DNA of 33,672 nt from Candidatus Omnitrophota bacterium (GCA_020430005.1 JAGQKQ010000001.1:1-33672); one strand, 5' to 3'. Shown: positions 8,324 to 28,828, numbered from the stretch's first letter. Made by a program: numbers and translations. The notes: generated by a model not told the origin, from the sequence alone.

Positions 8324-9796
8324 ATGACCTTCTGGAAAAATAAAAATGCCGGAGAATGTCTGAAAGCGGCAAACTATTTGTGGTGGCTTCCGGCCTTATT
8401 TCCATTACTAGCGATTCTGTCTTTCTATATACATGGAATGTGGTCCTGGGGATTGATGGACGATGTGAATATGGTAGGCCGTCCCGGAACAATTTGGGAA
8501 AGGTTTTGTGTTTTATTTTCCGATTTATTCCATGCGGGACGTTTTAATCCGACCTTTAGTTTTCACTGCGCTTTTTTTTACCGTATTTTTGAAAATCACC
8601 CGAAAGCCTTTTTTATCTTCCGTTGGATGGAGGTGGTCACGGCTTTAATGCTATGGGGATTTCTGGCTTATAAAGTAACGCAGAAAAAAACAGCTATTCC
8701 TTTATTCTTCGCGATTGCCCTTTCTTTCCTGAAATTTTATGACGCGTTTTTCTTTTTATCCACCCAGGAAATTCTCGGTATATTCTTTTCCGGAGCGGCA
8801 TTGGTATTTTTCTTCTGTGCATTAAAACCGTCCTTTATACATTCCGGCAATCTTAGAAAAACTTCTTTTGTCACGGGAATATTATGCTTGCTGCTGGCGT
8901 TTGGTTCTAAAGAACCGTTTGTATCTGTCGGCATAGCGTTGGGTTTTAGTTTGATTGTGTCTTGGATCAAAGACCGACAGCGGAAAGATTTTTTGGCGGT
9001 GGGTATTATCATATTTTCGTTTTCCGTCGGATATGCGCTTTTCTTGAAAACCTTTATCGCCAAGGGATATTCGGCCGGATACTCTCTAACCTGGAATGAA
9101 ATCAGCGGGAATATTCAGCAATGGTTTTATGATGTTTTGATCGGTAGTCACGGGTTTTGGATCATTATCGCTGTTTTTATTCTATTAGGCACCATATTCT
9201 CGCAGGATAAAAAACAGGAACGATCTGTTTTTTATTTTTGGATTATGATCTTTGGTTTATCTGTTTACGTTTTGTACTTACTGTTGATCCTGCCCTGGAA
9301 TGCTTGGGGACATTATGTGACACCTTTAGGTATTTTCTTCGCGTTTACCCTAACTGTTTTTTTGGCCGGTCTTTTACATTCCGCGCGGACATGGGTTGTG
9401 GGACTGGCGGCTGTTATGAGTTTGGGTGTTAATCTGTATGCCGGTGGAAAGGCGTTACATTTTCACGCGCAGTATCAACAGGATACGCAACAGATGTTAG
9501 TGTGGCTTTCGCAAAACGCTTTGTTTCAGCATGAAGTGATGGAGGCCGGCGCGGTTGTCCGTTGTAATGCCAATGAACCGTCCGGGGCTATTCGGAAGCT
9601 GGTTAATAATTATCATGGACAAAATTATCCCAAGTTTATTTTTACACCTAAGGTGGGCGATATTCTTAATGATCCGGCAACACGATATTACATATGGGCG
9701 CCAAGCTGGGGAGATCAGGATTTAAGGCGGTTAGGGAATATGTGGACACCAATGTTTGTTAGTGAAAGCTGGATTGTCTTCCGAAGAATGCGTTAA
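8324..9796 (+). CDS. polytopic membrane protein, possible GT-C-type glycosyltransferase
   Basis: The 490-aa ORF has more than 10 TM segments and a soluble C-terminal domain. A DD pair (GLMDDVN) sits in the first extracytoplasmic loop, as in ArnT/PMT-like GT-C enzymes. The function is a guess. Confidence 0.45.
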   Translation: MTFWKNKNAGECLKAANYLWWLPALFPLLAILSFYIHGMWSWGLMDDVNMVGRPGTIWERFCVLFSDLFHAGRFNPTFSFHCAFFYRIFENHPKAFFIFRWMEVVTALMLWGFLAYKVTQKKTAIPLFFAIALSFLKFYDAFFFLSTQEILGIFFSGAALVFFFCALKPSFIHSGNLRKTSFVTGILCLLLAFGSKEPFVSVGIALGFSLIVSWIKDRQRKDFLAVGIIIFSFSVGYALFLKTFIAKGYSAGYSLTWNEISGNIQQWFYDVLIGSHGFWIIIAVFILLGTIFSQDKKQERSVFYFWIMIFGLSVYVLYLLLILPWNAWGHYVTPLGIFFAFTLTVFLAGLLHSARTWVVGLAAVMSLGVNLYAGGKALHFHAQYQQDTQQMLVWLSQNALFQHEVMEAGAVVRCNANEPSGAIRKLVNNYHGQNYPKFIFTPKVGDILNDPATRYYIWAPSWGDQDLRRLGNMWTPMFVSESWIVFRRMR

Positions 9797-9931
9797 TTAG
9801 GGACGTACACCTTTTCCCCCTTTTTTAGCGCTTAGCCATTAATTCTTAGTATTTGGTAGATACATCGTTTTCTAAGGACTGCGAACTAGGCGCCAGCTAC
9901 TAAAAGGGGGAAAAGGTGTACGTCCCTAATT
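9795..9931. repeat. 137-bp hairpin element with perfect 30-bp inverted arms (MITE-like or long-stem structure)
   Basis: AATTAGGGACGTACACCTTTTCCCCCTTTT (9795-9824) is the exact reverse complement of 9902-9931, with a 77-nt spacer. The left arm overlaps the TAA stop codon of the upstream CDS. Confidence 0.85.
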
Positions 9932-9945
9932 TACTAATTTATTTC

Positions 9946-9974
9946 TTGACAATTGTCATGACAATTGTTATAAT
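9946..9974 (+). promoter_or_regulatory. consensus sigma70 promoter overlapped by a perfect 20-bp palindromic operator
   Basis: The promoter is TTGACA (9946-9951), 17 nt, TATAAT (9969-9974). The palindrome ACAATTGTCATGACAATTGT (9949-9968) fills the spacer. Confidence 0.6.
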
Positions 9975-10004
9975 TCGAACACATTAAGAAAGAAAAGGAC
10001 GCGT

Positions 10005-10193
10005 ATGTCGGTAACGATTATTAAACAATTAGAGGATTATAGGCAAGGTAAGGGGCTGACATATGCCCAGCTGGCACAGGAGATGGATATACCGGAAACA
10101 TATCTCTACCGCTGGCGTAAAAAACAATGTGTTAAAGGAATTTATGCAAAATTTGTGACATTATTTCTGCAACAGCAAGAAGTCACAGTATAA
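10005..10193 (+). CDS. small helix-turn-helix DNA-binding protein
   Basis: The 62-aa ORF contains GLTYAQLAQEMDIPETYLYRWRKK, a typical HTH similar to excisionase or transposase-OrfA-like TLYRW motifs. It lies 30 nt downstream of the promoter/operator. Confidence 0.6.
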   Translation: MSVTIIKQLEDYRQGKGLTYAQLAQEMDIPETYLYRWRKKQCVKGIYAKFVTLFLQQQEVTV

Positions 10194-10204
10194 GAAAAAA
10201 CATC

Positions 10205-10384
10205 ATGAACATCTTACAGGTTATTAAACAATTTATTGCTTCGGGGTTTTCCTTCCAGTATGCCCCGGCACTGAGAAACTGCCACTCCGGCAGTTCAACC
10301 GTCTCAGTGCGCCCTGAGTGTAAGGCGATGGTGCACGGAATGATTTCCGGCATTGCCGTCTGGACGCTTATGAAGCAAAGATAA
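10205..10384 (+). CDS. possible 59-aa hypothetical protein (below the ORF-track cutoff)
   Basis: My own translation is MNILQVIKQFIASGFSFQYAPALRNCHSGSSTVSVRPECKAMVHGMISGIAVWTLMKQR. It starts 11 nt after the HTH gene and has no clear SD. A 75-aa ORF is open on the opposite strand over the same DNA, so coding status is uncertain. Confidence 0.25.
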   Translation: MNILQVIKQFIASGFSFQYAPALRNCHSGSSTVSVRPECKAMVHGMISGIAVWTLMKQR

Positions 10385-10557
10385 CCTGTTTTCTTCAATC
10401 GTAACACCAATCATTACAAAAAATTCATTTCAAGTTTAACAGGAATCTTTGGTTTCAACGGCCACAGCCAACGGTGACGTCTGCGTAGTGTTGTTTTTTA
10501 TTGTCTAATAACTAAGCACTAGTCACAAAGCACTAATTATGAAAGGAGGTCATAATC

Positions 10558-10650
10558 ATGGAAATGATTAATTTTAACGTTTTAACGCTGGTGTTTTTCT
10601 ATTACAACCAATGGATTAGAAAAAATACCAAAAATAAAGAAGAAAGCTAA
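10558..10650 (+). CDS. possible 30-aa hydrophobic/basic micropeptide
   Basis: A strong AAAGGAGGT SD lies 7 nt upstream of the ATG. The translation is MEMINFNVLTLVFFYYNQWIRKNTKNKEES, a hydrophobic core followed by a charged tail. Confidence 0.35.
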   Translation: MEMINFNVLTLVFFYYNQWIRKNTKNKEES

Positions 10651-10676
10651 TTTAAAAACATAACAACGAGGTTAAT

Positions 10677-10931
10677 ATGAAAAAAAGAATAGATACAGAA
10701 CAAAAAAACATAAAGCCATTATCCAGCCTTGAACAGGTCTTGCGATTAACGGCGTTGGTTTACCTTGAAGAAGCGTTGATTCTTCAGGAGTACGAGCGCT
10801 GCCCTGAATTGATTGCCAAGGCGAAAGCCTTCGGAGCGTCTAAACGGGCAATCCGACGTTTGTTAGCTGGATATGTCCGTGGTTCAAAACGCCGGGGAAA
10901 ACCCTCGGTTACAACCGTTCCACGGTTCTAA
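10677..10931 (+). CDS. hypothetical small basic protein
   Basis: The 84-aa ORF follows a GAGG SD. It has a helical middle (LEEALILQEYERCPELIAKAK, UVR-motif-like) and a very basic tail. I recognised no family. Confidence 0.5.
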   Translation: MKKRIDTEQKNIKPLSSLEQVLRLTALVYLEEALILQEYERCPELIAKAKAFGASKRAIRRLLAGYVRGSKRRGKPSVTTVPRF

Positions 10932-10968
10932 TCGGGAGGTAATCCTATGGCGCCATGTTGGCACCCTT

Positions 10969-11011
10969 GAAGAGGATGGTCCATTTCTAAAATGAGCCAT
11001 CCTCTTTTTTT
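10969..11011 (+). terminator. intrinsic terminator
   Basis: The GAAGAGGATGG stem pairs with CCATCCTCTT and is followed by a T7 run. Confidence 0.7.
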
Positions 11012-11113
11012 GTCTGCGAAAGTTGCTTGTTATCTTTACTTCATAAAATAAGTCGTGTATTATGGGTTAGTGTTTAGAGAAATCTTAGATTTTTTCACTA
11101 TAAAACGGTCTAT

Positions 11114-12196
11114 ATGAAAGTTCTTCAAGAAATTGCCGTCTTATTTTTTAAACTCGGACTCATTGCCTTTGGCGGACCGGCTGCTCATATTGCCATGATG
11201 GAAGACGAGGTGGTCACAAAACGCCAATGGATGTCCAGAGATCACTTTTTAGATCTGGTTGGTGCGACCAATTTGATCCCCGGTCCTAATTCCACCGAAA
11301 TGGCGATCCATTGCGGGTATCATCGCGGAGGATGGATGGGGCTTATCATCGCCGGTGTTTGTTTTATTCTTCCTGCCGTTGTTTTAACAGGTATTCTTGC
11401 CCATTTTTATGTTCTTTACGGAACTCTTCCTGCAATTGAACCATTTATTTACGGTATTCGTCCGGCTGTTTTAGCGATTATCATTGCGGCCATTATCAAG
11501 CTAGGAAAAAAGGCTTTGAAAGGATGGCAGCTGGCTGTCATCGGCAGCGCGGTAACGATAGGTGTGATCGGCGGATTTAATGAAATCGCGGCGATTCTTT
11601 GCGGCGGTTTGATCGGTGCTGTTTGGCTGAATGTTATAGATACGAAAGGACAGGGAAAAGGTGTTAAACTCTTAACCCTATCACCGCTATTTCTCGTGTT
11701 TTTAAAAATTGGGGCGGTTCTCTTTGGAAGCGGATACGTTTTAATTGCGTACTTGGAAGGAGAGCTTGTTGAAAAGCTGGGATGGATTACACAATCTCAA
11801 TTATTAGATGCTGTTGCGATAGGACAGTTTACTCCCGGCCCTGTTCTTTCCACGGCAACGTTTATTGGTTATCAGGTGCAGGGTGTGCAGGGAGCGGTTT
11901 TGGCGACGTTAGGTATCTTTTTGCCGTCCTTTTTATTCGTGGCGCTTTTAAATCCGCTTGTTCCGAAAATGCGTAAATCGCGTTGGTTATCAAAGTTTCT
12001 GGATGCTGTTAATATCAGCGCGGTCGGTGTGATGGCGGGAGTTACTATAAGTTTGACGATGACGACCGTTACATCCTGGCAGACAGGACTTATTGCATTG
12101 ATCAGTATACTGGCAGTGATTCTTATTAAGAAAATAAATGTGTTATGGATTGTGATCGGCGGTTCGGGACTGGGATATATTTTTTCCTATATTTAG
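11114..12196 (+). CDS. chrA: chromate transporter (CHR family)
   Basis: FFKLGLIAFGGPAAHIAMMEDEVV and a second FGSGYVLIAYLE half show the duplicated CHR domains. The protein is polytopic. Confidence 0.85.
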   Translation: MKVLQEIAVLFFKLGLIAFGGPAAHIAMMEDEVVTKRQWMSRDHFLDLVGATNLIPGPNSTEMAIHCGYHRGGWMGLIIAGVCFILPAVVLTGILAHFYVLYGTLPAIEPFIYGIRPAVLAIIIAAIIKLGKKALKGWQLAVIGSAVTIGVIGGFNEIAAILCGGLIGAVWLNVIDTKGQGKGVKLLTLSPLFLVFLKIGAVLFGSGYVLIAYLEGELVEKLGWITQSQLLDAVAIGQFTPGPVLSTATFIGYQVQGVQGAVLATLGIFLPSFLFVALLNPLVPKMRKSRWLSKFLDAVNISAVGVMAGVTISLTMTTVTSWQTGLIALISILAVILIKKINVLWIVIGGSGLGYIFSYI

Positions 12197-28247: not shown

Positions 28248-28261
28248 TGTCTATAGAACCG

Positions 28262-28400
28262 ATAAAGGCAAACCCGCCGTAAGACGGGGACCCCGGTAAG
28301 GCCTAAAAGTCCTCCGGGTCCGGCCGGAAATATCCAGCCGGAGCAAAGCCAAGGGTCCTTAAGTGATATGGATAGCCTGGTTGCCAGTGAAATAAACAGA
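28262..28400 (+). promoter_or_regulatory. structured GC-rich leader, riboswitch-like aptamer candidate (c-di-GMP-I/GEMM-I-like motifs)
   Basis: Motifs occur in this order: AAAGGCAAACC (28264-28274), CGCC-GUAA-GACG hairpin, GGGGAC, two additional GC hairpins, GCAAAGCC (28343-28350), CCUUAAG...UAUGG (28357-28371), and GGTTGCC (28379-28385), which is complementary to GGCAA(A)CC. Confidence 0.45.
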
Positions 28401-28462: not shown

Positions 28463-28828
28463 ATGGCCAAAATTCTCGTTATTGATGACGATCATGAAAT
28501 ATGTAATCTCCTGGTGCAGCGGCTCAAGGCTAATAATTTTCATGTTGCCACGGCCAGTACTATTTTGGAGAGCTTTCAGCAATTAAGCCAGGAAGTGCCG
28601 GATGTGATCATTCTGGATTTTATGTTGCCGGGTATTTTAGGGACCACTTTTTCAGAAGACCTGAAGAAAGACACTCAGTATCAGGAAATTCCTATTATTT
28701 TTGTGTCAGGACAGTCTGAAGAAGAGATTAAAAAGATGGACGCAAACGTTCGTTTTGACGCCTACATAAGAAAACCTTTCGAAGCGCAGGACCTCATTCA
28801 AACCATCCATAAAGTTTTATCCAACTAA
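28463..28828 (+). CDS. receiver-only response regulator (CheY-like)
   Basis: The 121-aa ORF has ILVIDDDHE, DVIILDFMLP, FVSG and YIRKPF. There is no output domain. Confidence 0.85.
   Translation: MAKILVIDDDHEICNLLVQRLKANNFHVATASTILESFQQLSQEVPDVIILDFMLPGILGTTFSEDLKKDTQYQEIPIIFVSGQSEEEIKKMDANVRFDAYIRKPFEAQDLIQTIHKVLSN

What the first reader, a model, noticed from the sequence alone, without database searches (positions are those of the whole stretch)
9946..11011. Compact accessory cassette: consensus promoter with embedded perfect palindrome operator, small HTH gene, micro-ORFs and own terminator
Seen: TTGACA, 17 nt, TATAAT is an exact consensus promoter, which is rare in this window. Its spacer is filled by the perfect 20-bp palindrome ACAATTGTCATGACAATTGT (9949-9968), made of two copies of the self-complementary octamer ACAATTGT. 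Thirty nt downstream begins a 62-aa HTH protein. After it come a 59-aa ORF, a 30-aa hydrophobic peptide with a very strong SD, an 84-aa basic protein, and a clean terminator (10969-11011). The block sits between two unrelated housekeeping-type genes (a membrane protein and chrA) and is preceded by the 30-bp-arm hairpin element. From established knowledge, strong promoters overlapped by dyad operators and followed by a tiny HTH gene are the hallmark of autoregulated modules. These include toxin-antitoxin pairs, restriction-modification controller (C) proteins, phage immunity/Cro-like switches and abortive-infection cassettes. My inference is that this is a self-contained, tightly autorepressed small-protein module of unknown function, possibly a novel TA-like or phage-derived system whose effector is one of the small proteins.
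Basis: partly seen in the sequence, partly recalled or inferred. Interest (0 to 1): 0.7.

Follow-up and report, generated by a model that had tools for sequence, protein, structure and literature searches.

The report
Autoregulated small-protein operon with RNA switch
This stretch of an uncultured Omnitrophota bacterium is one small operon: a repressor gene that most likely shuts off its own very strong promoter, a conserved folded RNA that had been read as a 59-aa gene, and two tiny proteins found throughout this phylum; it shows no toxin-antitoxin or phage features.

Summary
The window has one exact TTGACA-17-TATAAT promoter, a perfect 20-bp palindrome in its spacer, four ORFs and a strong terminator.

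Comparison with relatives changes the interpretation.
1. The promoter/operator (21 nt identical) and the 62-aa HTH occur together in three diverged Omnitrophota lineages. They occur in none of about 60 related loci that lack the HTH. This supports an autorepressor.
2. The "59-aa ORF" is a conserved structured RNA. Its fold z-scores are -6.2, -6.0 and -4.1. The same four-way junction recurs, and 14 of 22 tested pairs show compensatory changes. It has no codon periodicity and no Rfam match. The frame is nevertheless open in all three lineages. The closing stem has a nearly isoenergetic alternative partner in a conserved downstream block.
3. The 30-aa and 84-aa genes are real. They belong to an unannotated Omnitrophota-specific family. 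The family usually occurs about once per genome, between unrelated housekeeping genes. It normally sits behind a different conserved leader (a ~29-aa ORF plus terminator) that is absent here.
4. There are no phage, plasmid, defence or toxin matches.

Best reading: an HTH-autoregulated operon whose structured, translated RNA leader controls a phylum-specific small-protein pair. The biochemical function is unknown.

The parts
9787..9939 (.). Long hairpin element (arms 9787-9824 and 9902-9939) lying between the stop codon of the 490-aa gene and the promoter. It is a probable terminator or insulator, or a MITE-like insert, and is specific to this species.
   Evidence: I1: 38-nt arms, 92% complementary. 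(-73.8 kcal/mol, z = -10.2). (found only in contigs of the same species); contig L006 joins a different left flank exactly at 9793.
9946..9974 (+). Consensus sigma-70 promoter: -35 TTGACA, 17-nt spacer, extended -10 TGtTATAAT.
   Evidence: 12/12 match, unique in the window, 0/100 shuffles. The same -35 and spacing occur in L073 and L111.
9947..9970 (.). Putative operator: two tandem 12-bp palindromic units, TGACAATTGTCA and TGACAATTGTTA. They contain the perfect 20-bp palindrome at 9949-9968 and cover the -35, the spacer and the edge of the -10.
   Evidence: (I19, D7). The 21-mer TGACAATTGTCATGACAATTG is identical in L073 and L111 while the flanking DNA is unalignable. Among family loci it is present only where the HTH gene is present.
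10005..10193 (+). 62-aa Xre/Cro-like helix-turn-helix protein, the presumed autorepressor.
   Evidence: Pfam HTH_23 8.8e-6 and HTH_3 2.5e-4. PHROG transcriptional regulator 2.5e-6. AF2 model pLDDT 75.7 with 4 helices. Nearest folds are HipB, SinR-N, HigA2, CapH, C.BclI, C.Esp1396I and 434 Cro, all weak (E 0.25-1, TM 0.5-0.67). Within the species, 7 synonymous and 0 nonsynonymous changes. Differences by codon position [16,4,28], [18,8,32] and [13,6,23] between lineages.
10205..10384 (+). The 59-codon open frame ('59-aa ORF'). It is kept open in three lineages, but its peptide is not conserved. It starts 11 nt after the HTH stop codon, and its own stop codon lies in the 3' strand of stem P1.
   Evidence: Chance of an open frame is 0.09 (window) and 0.066 (L073). 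No BLASTP alignment to the L073 ORF. Differences by codon position are flat: [16,14,16], [23,23,23], [18,21,19]. Within the species, 1 synonymous and 3 nonsynonymous changes.
10216..10389 (+). Conserved structured RNA, a four-way junction. P1 is 10216-10225 paired with 10380-10389; P1b is 10236-10242 paired with 10372-10378. The hairpins are Ha 10243-10266, Hb 10268-10310 and Hc 10315-10370.
   Evidence: MFE -77.8 kcal/mol, z = -6.15; the minus strand gives only z = -3.25. L073 has z = -4.09 and L111 has z = -6.0, with the same helices at the same offsets. Independent folds share 39/62 pairs, against at most 30 in 500 shuffles and at most 23 in 500 natural segments. For Ha plus Hb, 87.5% of cells are paired against 35-44% with slid partners, and 14/22 pairs have compensatory changes, reached by 0/500 shuffles. 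All 3 within-species SNPs at paired sites keep the pair. No Rfam match.
10439..10456 (+). Conserved spacer block ACAGGAATCTTTGGTTTC, a near-copy of the 5' strand of P1. It is an alternative pairing partner for the 3' strands of P1 and P1b.
   Evidence: The block CAGGRATCTTTGSTT is conserved in window, L111 and L073 within an otherwise diverged spacer. In full-length folds of window and L111 the minimum-free-energy structure pairs it with the P1 3' strand. In all three lineages the minimum-free-energy fold and the fold with P1 enforced differ by 1 kcal/mol or less.
10457..10499 (+). Weak hairpin followed by a U-run (TTTTTT at 10494-10499); a possible leaky internal terminator.
   Evidence: z about 0 in window and L073. 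The L111 counterpart is stronger: -19.2 kcal/mol, z = -1.8. Its function is not established.
10558..10650 (+). 30-aa micro-protein with a hydrophobic N-terminal segment, a charged tail (..KNTKNKEES) and a very strong Shine-Dalgarno sequence (AAAGGAGGT, 10542-10550).
   Evidence: Homologous micro-ORFs lie directly upstream of the family gene in L013, L014/L028, L015-017, L020, L024, L026, L030, L048, L111, L112 and L113, with a conserved ..LENSMKKEKS-type tail. 50% identity to L111. Within the species, 2 synonymous and 0 nonsynonymous changes.
10677..10931 (+). 84-aa basic (pI 10.4) three-helix protein, a member of an unannotated Omnitrophota-specific family. The family motif is LKxTALxYLKEALxxExYExCxELIxxAKxFGA, and the C-terminus often ends in RF.
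   Evidence: 139 representative clusters at E<=1e-3 and 155 at 90% clustering; every hit that carries a source name is called Omnitrophica/Omnitrophota. 62 genomic loci. Alignments A1 and A4. AF2 pLDDT 62.8 with helices 17-36, 43-51 and 56-72. No Pfam, PDB, Foldseek or NCBIfam match. Within the species, 7 synonymous and 1 nonsynonymous change. Differences by codon position [24,13,40].
10969..11012 (+). Intrinsic terminator of the operon.
   Evidence: I3; the 89-nt segment 10932-11020, which holds this 17-bp hairpin plus a U7 run, folds at -32.4 kcal/mol, z = -3.2. Equivalent terminators follow the family gene in L111 (z = -5.6) and L073 (z = -3.7).
11029..11046 (.). 18-nt inverted copy (17/18) of 10368-10385, that is, of the 3' strands of P1b and P1. 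It lies just past the terminator, over the putative -35 of chrA. Unexplained.
   Evidence: I2; promoter-like site at 11035-11063. Reading the post-terminator sequence of L073 and L111 showed no such copy; no search was run.

Best explanation
The region 9946-11012 is one operon of an uncultured Omnitrophota bacterium. It has two stacked layers of cis-control placed in front of a phylum-specific pair of small proteins.

(1) Promoter and repressor. The promoter is a consensus extended -10 sigma-70 promoter. Its -35-to-(-10) interval consists of two tandem 12-bp palindromes. The first gene encodes a 62-aa Xre/Cro-like HTH protein. It most likely binds these palindromes as a dimer or a pair of dimers and blocks RNA polymerase. 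That would give negative autoregulation of the whole transcript. The conservation and co-occurrence are shown; the binding and its repressive sign are inferred.

(2) Structured RNA. The next ~175 nt, previously read as a 59-aa gene, form a conserved four-way-junction RNA. The covariation is shown. A 56-59-codon frame runs through it, starting 10-28 nt after the HTH stop codon and ending in or just before the 3' strand of the closing stem. The frame is kept open, but the peptide is unconstrained. I infer that ribosomes translate it and thereby remodel the RNA. The 3' strand of the closing stem can pair almost equally well with a conserved block ~55 nt downstream, so the RNA is bistable. I infer that this is a translation-coupled RNA switch that sets how much transcription or translation reaches the two downstream genes. 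What the switch controls is not resolved.

(3) Payload. The payload is a 30-aa protein with a hydrophobic N-terminal segment and an 84-aa basic three-helix protein. They form a conserved pair found across Omnitrophota between unrelated housekeeping genes. In most genomes the pair is driven by a different conserved leader: a strong promoter, a ~29-aa leader ORF that is often leaderless, and a terminator. In this lineage the HTH-plus-RNA module stands in the place of that leader.

The biochemical role of the pair is unknown. Its basic disordered tails and a weak HU/HeH-like helix-turn suggest nucleic-acid binding, but that is speculation.
For: Promoter and operator:
- They are unique in the window and exact.
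- The 21-nt operator is identical in window, L073 and L111, although the HTH proteins are 61-70% identical, the family proteins 40-46% identical, and the flanking intergenic DNA unalignable.
- Among the family loci (62 from the genome scan, plus those fetched by protein look-up) the operator occurs only in the HTH-bearing ones.

HTH protein:
- Pfam and PHROG hits and the predicted fold.
- A clear coding signature.

Structured RNA:
- Fold z-scores of -6.15, -6.0 and -4.09.
- Shared topology: 39/62, 31/62 and 33/60 pairs shared, against maxima of 21-30 in controls.
- Covariation: 14/22 pairs, reached by 0/500 shuffles, with slid-partner controls at 35-44% paired.
- Within-species SNPs at paired sites all preserve pairing.
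- No codon periodicity.
- Non-coding DNA together with the orf59 stretch diverges about four times less than third codon positions (Fisher p = 1.6e-4).

Open frame: chance of 0.09 x 0.066 for two of the lineages, and a third lineage is also open.

Bistability: a conserved block, the switch of partner in full-length folds, and an energy difference of 1 kcal/mol or less in all three lineages.

Single transcription unit: no promoter-like site on the + strand between 9975 and 11034, and one strong terminator at the end.

Payload family. Six different genomic contexts. The usual leader is present in at least 33 loci, and its ORF is intact in 28/28 aligned copies. It is absent from the window, L073 and L111.
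Against: - No binding, transcript or translation data exist. Repression is inferred only from the position of the operator.
- The RNA evidence rests on three lineages plus one strain variant.
- A covariance model built from the window alone scores the L073 element at only 10.7 bits (E 0.56 in 77 kb).
- The closing stem and the alternative block are conserved in sequence, so covariation cannot test either of them.
- The spacer hairpin plus U-run is weak in window and L073 (z about 0). In L111 a hairpin precedes the U-run in both conformations. What the switch controls is therefore unclear.
- An unrecognised internal promoter in 10385-10557 cannot be excluded.
- The open frame may mean a real but fast-evolving peptide.
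- The AF2 model of the 84-aa protein has low confidence (pLDDT 62.8), so nothing firm can be said about its activity.
- The three HTH-type family proteins are no closer to each other than to proteins of the other locus type. The history of the leader exchange is therefore unresolved.
Confidence: 0.55

Rival explanations
1. One reading: a mobile accessory module (type II toxin-antitoxin-like, abortive infection, a restriction-modification controller unit or a phage immunity remnant). In this view the HTH is an antitoxin or immunity repressor and one of the small proteins is a toxin or effector.
For: - The architecture is a small HTH gene first, with a strong promoter overlapped by a dyad operator.
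- The nearest folds of the HTH model include HipB, HigA2, CapH and C proteins.
- There are weak PADLOC HTH hits.
- The 30-aa product resembles type I toxins in its layout: a hydrophobic N-terminal segment, a charged tail and a strong Shine-Dalgarno sequence.
- The genomic context differs between lineages, and contig L006 has an alternative left junction.
Against: - The 30-aa and 84-aa genes belong to a phylum-wide family, mostly one copy per genome, set between housekeeping genes and under purifying selection.
- Most family loci have no HTH at all.
- No toxin, defence or phage family matches any non-HTH product.
- There is no match in phage or plasmid DNA collections.
- No restriction-modification, integrase or transposase gene is adjacent.
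- The operator scans of viral and metagenome contigs returned only unrelated sequences.
Confidence: 0.07
2. The 59-codon frame encodes a genuine, rapidly evolving small protein (the effector or a co-regulator). The strong RNA structure is secondary, serving for example mRNA stability or control of translation rate.
For: - The frame is open in all three lineages, at 59, 59 and 56 codons, from a homologous ATG.
- The chance of this is about 0.006 for two lineages.
- Purine-rich Shine-Dalgarno-like sequences lie upstream of the ATG in L073 and L111.
- tblastn of window against L111 gives 31% identity, E 1.4e-4, in a small database.
- NCBI annotates it as a gene in L001.
Against: - There is no third-position excess in any pairwise comparison, whereas the neighbouring genes show it clearly.
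- There is no protein similarity between window and L073.
- Within the species there are 3 nonsynonymous changes against 1 synonymous, and all 3 nonsynonymous changes preserve base pairs.
- No family or domain matches.
- The gene caller used for the ENA contigs did not call it.
- Compensatory changes explain the substitution pattern.
Confidence: 0.15
3. The structured RNA is not a switch for the downstream genes. It could be a stand-alone or processed small RNA, an mRNA-stabilising or processing element, or the 3' end of an HTH-only transcript. In that case the 30-aa and 84-aa pair is transcribed separately.
For: - A hairpin plus U-run lies in the spacer of all three lineages and is fairly strong in L111.
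- In loci of the usual type the pair also sits behind a terminator.
- The output of the alternative pairing could not be identified.
Against: - No promoter-like site on the + strand lies between the spacer U-run and the micro-ORF.
- The spacer hairpins in window and L073 are no better than shuffled sequence.
- The order HTH, RNA, micro-ORF, family gene and the spacing are conserved in three lineages with different flanks.
- The alternative-partner block is conserved and the two conformations are nearly isoenergetic in all three lineages.
Confidence: 0.2

Closest known systems
Small Xre/Cro-type autorepressors with operators inside their own promoter (phage 434 Cro/cI, restriction-modification controller proteins C.Esp1396I, C.BclI and C.AhdI, antitoxins HipB and HigA)
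   Same: It is a ~60-aa protein made only of an HTH domain and encoded first in its operon. Tandem palindromic sites overlap the -35 and the spacer. The nearest predicted folds are these proteins.
   Different: There is no restriction-modification, toxin or phage partner. The best sequence hit is HTH_23, with weak similarity to IS3-type HTH domains. The operator sequence (TGACAATTGTCA, twice) is specific to this group. The genes it would control are a conserved, phylum-specific small-protein pair.
Translated, structured mRNA leaders (mgtA/mgtL and mgtCBR leaders, tnaC, pyrBI and classical leader-peptide attenuators)
   Same: An ORF is embedded in a conserved RNA structure upstream of the regulated genes. 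Alternative pairings are mutually exclusive and of similar energy. A U-run lies downstream.
   Different: The ORF is long (56-59 codons) and shows no conserved regulatory codons or peptide. It lies inside an operon, after a regulator gene, not at the 5' end. Coupling between terminator and antiterminator was not demonstrated. No Rfam family matches.
Riboswitches with multi-helix junctions (SAM-I and cobalamin classes)
   Same: It is a ~175-nt junction RNA closed by a P1 stem, and the 3' strand of P1 has an alternative partner downstream.
   Different: No Rfam model matches, even at E<=10. No ligand is suggested by the downstream genes. The element is translated through. Only three lineages are known.
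Type I toxin peptides (Fst, Hok, Ldr, AapA1), compared with the 30-aa product
   Same: It is about 30 aa, with a hydrophobic N-terminal segment, a charged C-terminal tail and a strong Shine-Dalgarno sequence, and it lies downstream of highly structured RNA.
   Different: It is conserved next to the 84-aa gene across many Omnitrophota. There is no convincing antisense promoter: the only minus-strand site scores 9/12, at chance level. No toxin family matches.

Membership tests
Xre/Cro-C1-type HTH autorepressor | Helix-turn-helix DNA-binding domain | tested here: met
   HTH_23 at 25.8 bits against a cut-off of 24.6; HTH_3 at 21.5 against 23, just below. PHROG regulator 2.5e-6. The AF2 model has 4 helices, and its nearest folds are Xre-type.
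Xre/Cro-C1-type HTH autorepressor | Dyad-symmetric operator overlapping its own promoter and co-inherited with the gene | tested here: met
   The 21-nt operator is identical in 3 lineages and absent from family loci that lack the HTH.
Xre/Cro-C1-type HTH autorepressor | The protein binds the operator and represses transcription | not testable with these tools
   Needs EMSA or footprinting and reporter assays.
Type II toxin-antitoxin module | A toxin gene of a recognisable toxin fold or family next to the HTH antitoxin | tested here: not met
   No Pfam, PADLOC, NCBIfam or PHROGs match for the 59-, 30- or 84-aa products. No PDB sequence or fold match for the 84-aa family.
Type II toxin-antitoxin module | Patchy, mobile distribution, with antitoxin and toxin always paired | tested here: not met
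   The 84-aa family is phylum-wide and mostly single copy. In at least 33 loci it is paired with a different leader and no HTH.
Restriction-modification controller (C-protein) unit | Adjacent restriction endonuclease and methyltransferase genes | tested here: not met
   The flanks encode an M42 peptidase, an MBL hydrolase, a membrane protein, ChrA, DoxX and DUF481.
Phage-derived immunity or Cro switch | Homology to, or location in, phage or prophage DNA | tested here: not met
   No blastn match in 50,697 phage records. PHROGs gives only generic HTH hits. Viral-contig operator matches are unrelated.
Type I toxin-antitoxin | A small hydrophobic toxin plus an overlapping antisense RNA with its own promoter | tested here: inconclusive
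   The peptide has the right shape. The only antisense promoter-like site (10564-10536, 9/12) is at the chance level. Conservation alongside the 84-aa gene argues against this class.
Cis-regulatory structured RNA (riboswitch or attenuator class) | Secondary structure conserved and supported by covariation | tested here: met
Cis-regulatory structured RNA (riboswitch or attenuator class) | Alternative, mutually exclusive pairing linked to a terminator or Shine-Dalgarno sequence | tested here: inconclusive
   A conserved, nearly isoenergetic alternative partner for the P1 3' strand exists. Its link to the spacer hairpin and U-run or to the micro-ORF Shine-Dalgarno sequence is not clear.
Cis-regulatory structured RNA (riboswitch or attenuator class) | Membership of a described Rfam family | tested here: not met
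   No relevant hit at E<=10 in the window or at E<=1 in L073 and L111.

The most novel reading that the evidence does not exclude
The ~175-nt element could be a new class of translation-coupled RNA switch, possibly sensing a ligand or a protein. It would act together with a dedicated HTH repressor to control a phylum-specific small-protein pair, and in these lineages it would have replaced a second undescribed regulatory device. That device is a conserved ~29-aa leader ORF plus terminator, often leaderless, found across Omnitrophota, which may act as a nascent-peptide attenuator. A further possibility the data do not exclude: the basic 84-aa protein itself binds one of these RNAs and closes an autoregulatory loop.
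Probability: 0.22. Interest if true: 0.75.

Novelty: new variant of a known kind. Interest (0 to 1): 0.55.

Why it matters
Omnitrophota are a widespread, uncultured phylum of very small cells, and almost none of their phylum-specific genes have a known role.

This locus yields several items that are absent from Pfam, NCBIfam, PHROGs, PADLOC, PDB and Rfam:
- a conserved small-protein family (84 aa) and its micro-protein partner (30 aa);
- a covarying structured RNA that an annotation pipeline calls a protein gene;
- a repressor-operator pair with an exactly conserved site, which can be tested directly in E. coli.

Across the phylum, the same pair of genes sits behind two quite different regulatory front ends. 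That is a natural example of regulatory replacement.

There is also a practical lesson. An ORF with its own start and stop, open in several genomes, can still be primarily an RNA element.

Tried and rejected
- Word-indexed protein searches with the 84-aa and 62-aa products found only the proteins themselves. The exhaustive HMMER search was needed to find the family.
- blastn of the cassette against phage and plasmid collections found nothing.
- Scanning metagenome and viral contigs for the 19-nt operator gave 32 loci. All are unrelated: (TGTCATGACAAT)n tandem repeats, coding sequence of a MATE transporter, and others. None has an HTH or family homologue.
- The first related-loci run with the 59-sequence alignment failed because the alignment had no conserved stretch. 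A 10-sequence alignment worked.
- I looked for the usual leader unit in the window and in L073 with nhmmer at maximum sensitivity. All scores were negative, so it is absent.
- RNAalifold on the usual leader found only its terminator and one short stem. Its ORF conservation (28/28) is the stronger signal.
- A covariance model built from the window RNA alone gave only a weak full-length hit on L073. I replaced this approach with comparison of independent folds and explicit pair counting.
- Foldseek with the low-confidence 84-aa model returned no match. The profile search against PDB hit only designed helical repeats and, weakly, HU.
- The spacer 10385-10560 taken alone shows no unusual folding (z = 0.2).
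- Literature searches on Omnitrophota small proteins and riboswitches returned nothing relevant.
- Extra context look-ups (P0004, P0158, P0142, P0167) gave loci of the usual type, truncated loci, or no DNA. None was of the HTH type.
Full report
OBSERVATION

TTGACA (9946-9951), a 17-nt spacer and TATAAT (9969-9974) form the only exact consensus promoter in the 33.7-kb window, with 0 of 100 shuffles giving one. A TG lies one base upstream of the -10, which makes it an extended -10. The perfect 20-bp palindrome at 9949-9968 is unique in the window. It is more naturally read as two tandem 12-bp palindromic units, TGACAATTGTCA and TGACAATTGTTA, at 9947-9970 (D7).

The four + strand ORFs of 62, 59, 30 and 84 aa are present. 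So are the terminator hairpin at 10969-11007 with its U-run (z = -3.2) and the large upstream hairpin at 9787-9939 (-73.8 kcal/mol, z = -10). The 62-aa product is an HTH protein (Pfam HTH_23, E 8.8e-6). The other three have no Pfam, PHROGs, PADLOC or NCBIfam match.

WHOSE DNA, AND WHICH ORFS ARE GENES

Identical or near-identical copies occur on short metagenome contigs and in a Candidatus Omnitrophica MAG (GCA_020429925.1, locus L001). L001 is 93.5% identical to the window over 3.2 kb, which allows a test for selection.

| Region | Synonymous | Nonsynonymous |
|---|---|---|
| HTH gene | 7 | 0 |
| 84-aa gene | 7 | 1 |
| 30-aa ORF | 2 | 0 |
| 59-aa ORF | 1 | 3 |

Non-coding stretches together with the 59-aa ORF stretch are about four times less diverged than third codon positions of the three genes (18/754 against 16/179, Fisher p = 1.6e-4). 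These stretches are therefore constrained at the nucleotide level.

THE 84-AA AND 30-AA PRODUCTS BELONG TO A PHYLUM-WIDE FAMILY

Word-indexed searches found nothing for the 84-aa and 62-aa products. An exhaustive HMMER search with the 84-aa protein found 139 representative clusters. A profile search found 155 more at 90% clustering, and every hit that carries a source name is called Omnitrophica or Omnitrophota.

The family is 70-95 aa long. Its motif is LKxTALxYLKEALxxExYExCxELIxxAKxFGA, followed by a basic tail that often ends in RF. No Pfam or PDB relative exists. The AF2 model has low confidence (pLDDT 62.8) and shows three helices with disordered ends. Foldseek finds nothing.

A scan of one genome per species returned 62 loci, nearly always one per genome. 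The neighbours differ every time: MlaD, MscS and ABC-F; PAS and T2SS; CysS and a deaminase; ChrA here; NicO and cyclophilin in L073.

A homologue of the 30-aa micro-ORF, with a strong Shine-Dalgarno sequence and a conserved ..LENSMKKEKS-type tail, lies directly upstream of the family gene in a dozen lineages.

This is the pattern of a lineage-specific core gene pair, not of a mobile cassette.

THE USUAL FRONT END IS DIFFERENT

In at least 33 of these loci the pair, or the family gene alone, is preceded by a ~200-nt conserved unit. The unit consists of:
- a promoter, TTGACA-17-TGnTAnACT;
- about 10 nt later, an ATG opening a 28-41-codon ORF (consensus M[KN]xLxxQKHxVxCxMLxxxWRKxxGxGVF), intact in 28 of 28 aligned copies with in-frame indels only;
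- a strong terminator, GCCACC...GGTGGCTTTTTT, that often ends less than 20 nt before the next start codon.

It has no Rfam match. It looks like a leader-peptide attenuator. It is absent from the window.

THE HTH-TYPE FRONT END RECURS IN THREE LINEAGES

Two loci carry the same arrangement as the window. L073 is an Omnitrophota MAG (nzgw314). L111 is a Logan contig reached through the closest family protein.

The shared arrangement is:
- promoter and operator;
- HTH gene;
- a 56-59-codon frame;
- a spacer of ~150-170 nt;
- the micro-ORF (split in L073 by a small palindromic insert);
- the family gene;
- a terminator.

The 21-mer TGACAATTGTCATGACAATTG is identical in all three. The HTH proteins are only 61-70% identical, the family proteins 40-46%, and the surrounding intergenic DNA cannot be aligned.

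The HTH genes show the classical coding pattern of differences by codon position: [16,4,28], [18,8,32] and [13,6,23]. The AF2 model (pLDDT 75.7) has four helices. Its nearest folds, all at weak E-values, are HipB, SinR-N, HigA2, CapH, the C proteins and 434 Cro.

An operator that spans the -35 and the spacer implies repression by occlusion. This is an inference from established knowledge of Cro/C-protein-type systems. Binding itself is untested.

THE '59-AA ORF' IS A STRUCTURED RNA

The region folds far better than shuffled sequence. The window gives -77.8 kcal/mol and z = -6.15. L111 gives -75.7 kcal/mol and z = -6.0. L073 gives -64.8 kcal/mol and z = -4.09. The window's minus strand reaches only z = -3.25.

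Independent minimum-free-energy folds give the same topology at the same offsets from the ATG: a closing stem P1 around consecutive hairpins Ha, Hb and Hc, with a fourth hairpin in L111. Window and L073 share 39 of 62 pairs within +/-3 nt. The controls give 2.9 +/- 5.0 (maximum 30) for 500 shuffles and 3.4 +/- 5.3 (maximum 23) for 500 natural segments. L111 shares 31 pairs with the window and 33 with L073, against shuffle maxima of 23 and 21.

On a gapless alignment of Ha and Hb, one search gives:
- 87.5% of cells form standard pairs, against 35-44% when partners are slid;
- 14 of 22 pairs carry changes on both sides;
- 0 of 500 shuffles reach the observed values.

The three within-species SNPs at paired sites all keep the pair (C-G to U-G, A-U to G-U, G-U to A-U), although all three change the amino acid.

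Differences by codon position are flat: [16,14,16], [23,23,23] and [18,21,19]. The window and L073 'proteins' have no detectable similarity. No Rfam model matches.

The frame is nevertheless open in all three lineages. It runs from a homologous ATG placed 10-28 nt after the HTH stop codon to a TAA in or just before the 3' strand of P1. The chance of this is 0.09 x 0.066 for two of the lineages, and the third is open too. The simplest reconciliation is that the frame is translated but only the act of translation matters. That is an inference.

AN ALTERNATIVE PAIRING

The otherwise diverged spacer contains a conserved block, CAGGRATCTTTGSTT (window 10439-10456). It is a near-copy of the 5' strand of P1.

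When the RNA is folded from the ATG to the spacer U-run, the minimum-free-energy structure in window and L111 pairs the P1 3' strand with this block instead of with P1 5'. In all three lineages the free minimum-energy fold and the fold with P1 enforced lie within 1 kcal/mol of each other:

| Lineage | Unconstrained MFE (kcal/mol) | P1 enforced (kcal/mol) |
|---|---|---|
| window | -92.6 | -91.6 |
| L111 | -100.6 | -100.1 |
| L073 | -79.8 | -79.5 |

This is what a bistable RNA switch looks like. I could not identify its output. The hairpin plus U-run that follows is weak in window and L073. In L111 it is stronger, but there a hairpin precedes the U-run in both states. P1 and the block are conserved in sequence, so covariation cannot test them.

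SYNTHESIS

The cassette is best read as a single transcription unit. No other + strand promoter-like site lies between 9975 and 11034, and there is one strong terminator. It places a conserved Omnitrophota small-protein pair under a dedicated HTH autorepressor and a translated, structured RNA leader. This module stands where most relatives have the leader-ORF-plus-terminator unit.

Nothing supports a toxin-antitoxin, restriction-modification controller, abortive-infection or phage origin. No partner genes are adjacent. No homology exists to such systems. Phage and plasmid collections hold no match.

What the pair does remains unknown. The basic tails and a weak HU-like match (E about 0.2) hint at nucleic-acid binding, and the 30-aa product looks membrane-anchored.

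CAVEATS

- The RNA evidence comes from three lineages.
- No expression or binding data exist.
- An unrecognised internal promoter cannot be excluded.
- The three HTH-type family proteins are no closer to one another than to proteins of the usual locus type. Whether the front end was exchanged once or moved several times is therefore open.
- Contig L006 joins the hairpin element to a different left-hand gene (a GNAT) exactly at 9793. This may mean the hairpin is a repeated element, or it may be an assembly artefact.

Noticed in passing
Not in the window. Examples: L013:3500-3734, L014:2930-3144, L015:3627-3838, L112:178-418; alignment A6.: A ~200-nt unit is conserved upstream of the 84-aa family gene in at least 33 Omnitrophota loci. 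It has a TTGACA-17-TGnTAnACT promoter, a 28-41-codon ORF that is often leaderless (M[KN]xL..C..WRK..G.GVF, intact in 28/28 copies) and a strong terminator that often ends less than 20 nt before the next gene. It has no Rfam match. It is a candidate new leader-peptide attenuator or small-protein gene.
   Followed up: partly
window 28257-28388 (+): A c-di-GMP-I riboswitch aptamer (Rfam RF01051, 37 bits against a gathering score of 35). It lies upstream of a stand-alone response-regulator receiver gene at 28463-28828.
   Followed up: no
window 9787-9939; L006:359-505: A 153-nt near-perfect hairpin (z = -10) seen only in this species. In contig L006 it is joined, exactly at window position 9793, to a divergent GNAT acetyltransferase gene instead of the 490-aa membrane-protein gene. 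This suggests a repeated MITE-like element, a strain rearrangement or an assembly chimera. Strain variants carry an 8-bp deletion at 9926-9933.
   Followed up: partly
window 10368-10385 and 11029-11046: An 18-nt inverted repeat (17/18) links the 3' strands of P1b and P1 of the structured RNA to a site just past the operon terminator, over the putative -35 of chrA. Reading the post-terminator sequence of L073 and L111 showed no such copy. Its meaning is unknown.
   Followed up: partly
L073:1911-2104: In L073 the micro-ORF is split. Its N-terminal hydrophobic part ends at a stop codon inside a small palindromic insert (GTGTAGGAAAGG...CCTTTCCTACAC). The conserved ..LENSRKKEKS tail continues in a separate short ORF. 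It is probably a pseudogenised micro-ORF.
   Followed up: no
L113:125-2000: A group II intron (RVT_1 plus GIIM reverse transcriptase, with a GUGCG 5' end) is inserted right after a terminator, between the upstream unit and the micro-ORF/family gene pair. In L014:3216-3560, short ORFs that resemble an IS200-type transposase lie in the equivalent gap; this was not verified.
   Followed up: no
window 11114-12196; L073:42-1241: In two of the three HTH-type loci the cassette lies next to metal-ion transport genes: chrA here, and the C-terminus of a P-type ATPase plus NicO in L073. L073 also has a duplicated ATPase C-terminal fragment at 1146-1241, directly upstream of the promoter. This may be coincidence.
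   Followed up: no
L079-L103 (for example Ga0209712 contigs): The operator 12-mer occurs as long tandem arrays, (TGTCATGACAAT)n, on unrelated metagenome contigs. It also occurs inside coding sequence of a MATE transporter. Short-pattern scans for this operator are therefore not specific.
   Followed up: yes
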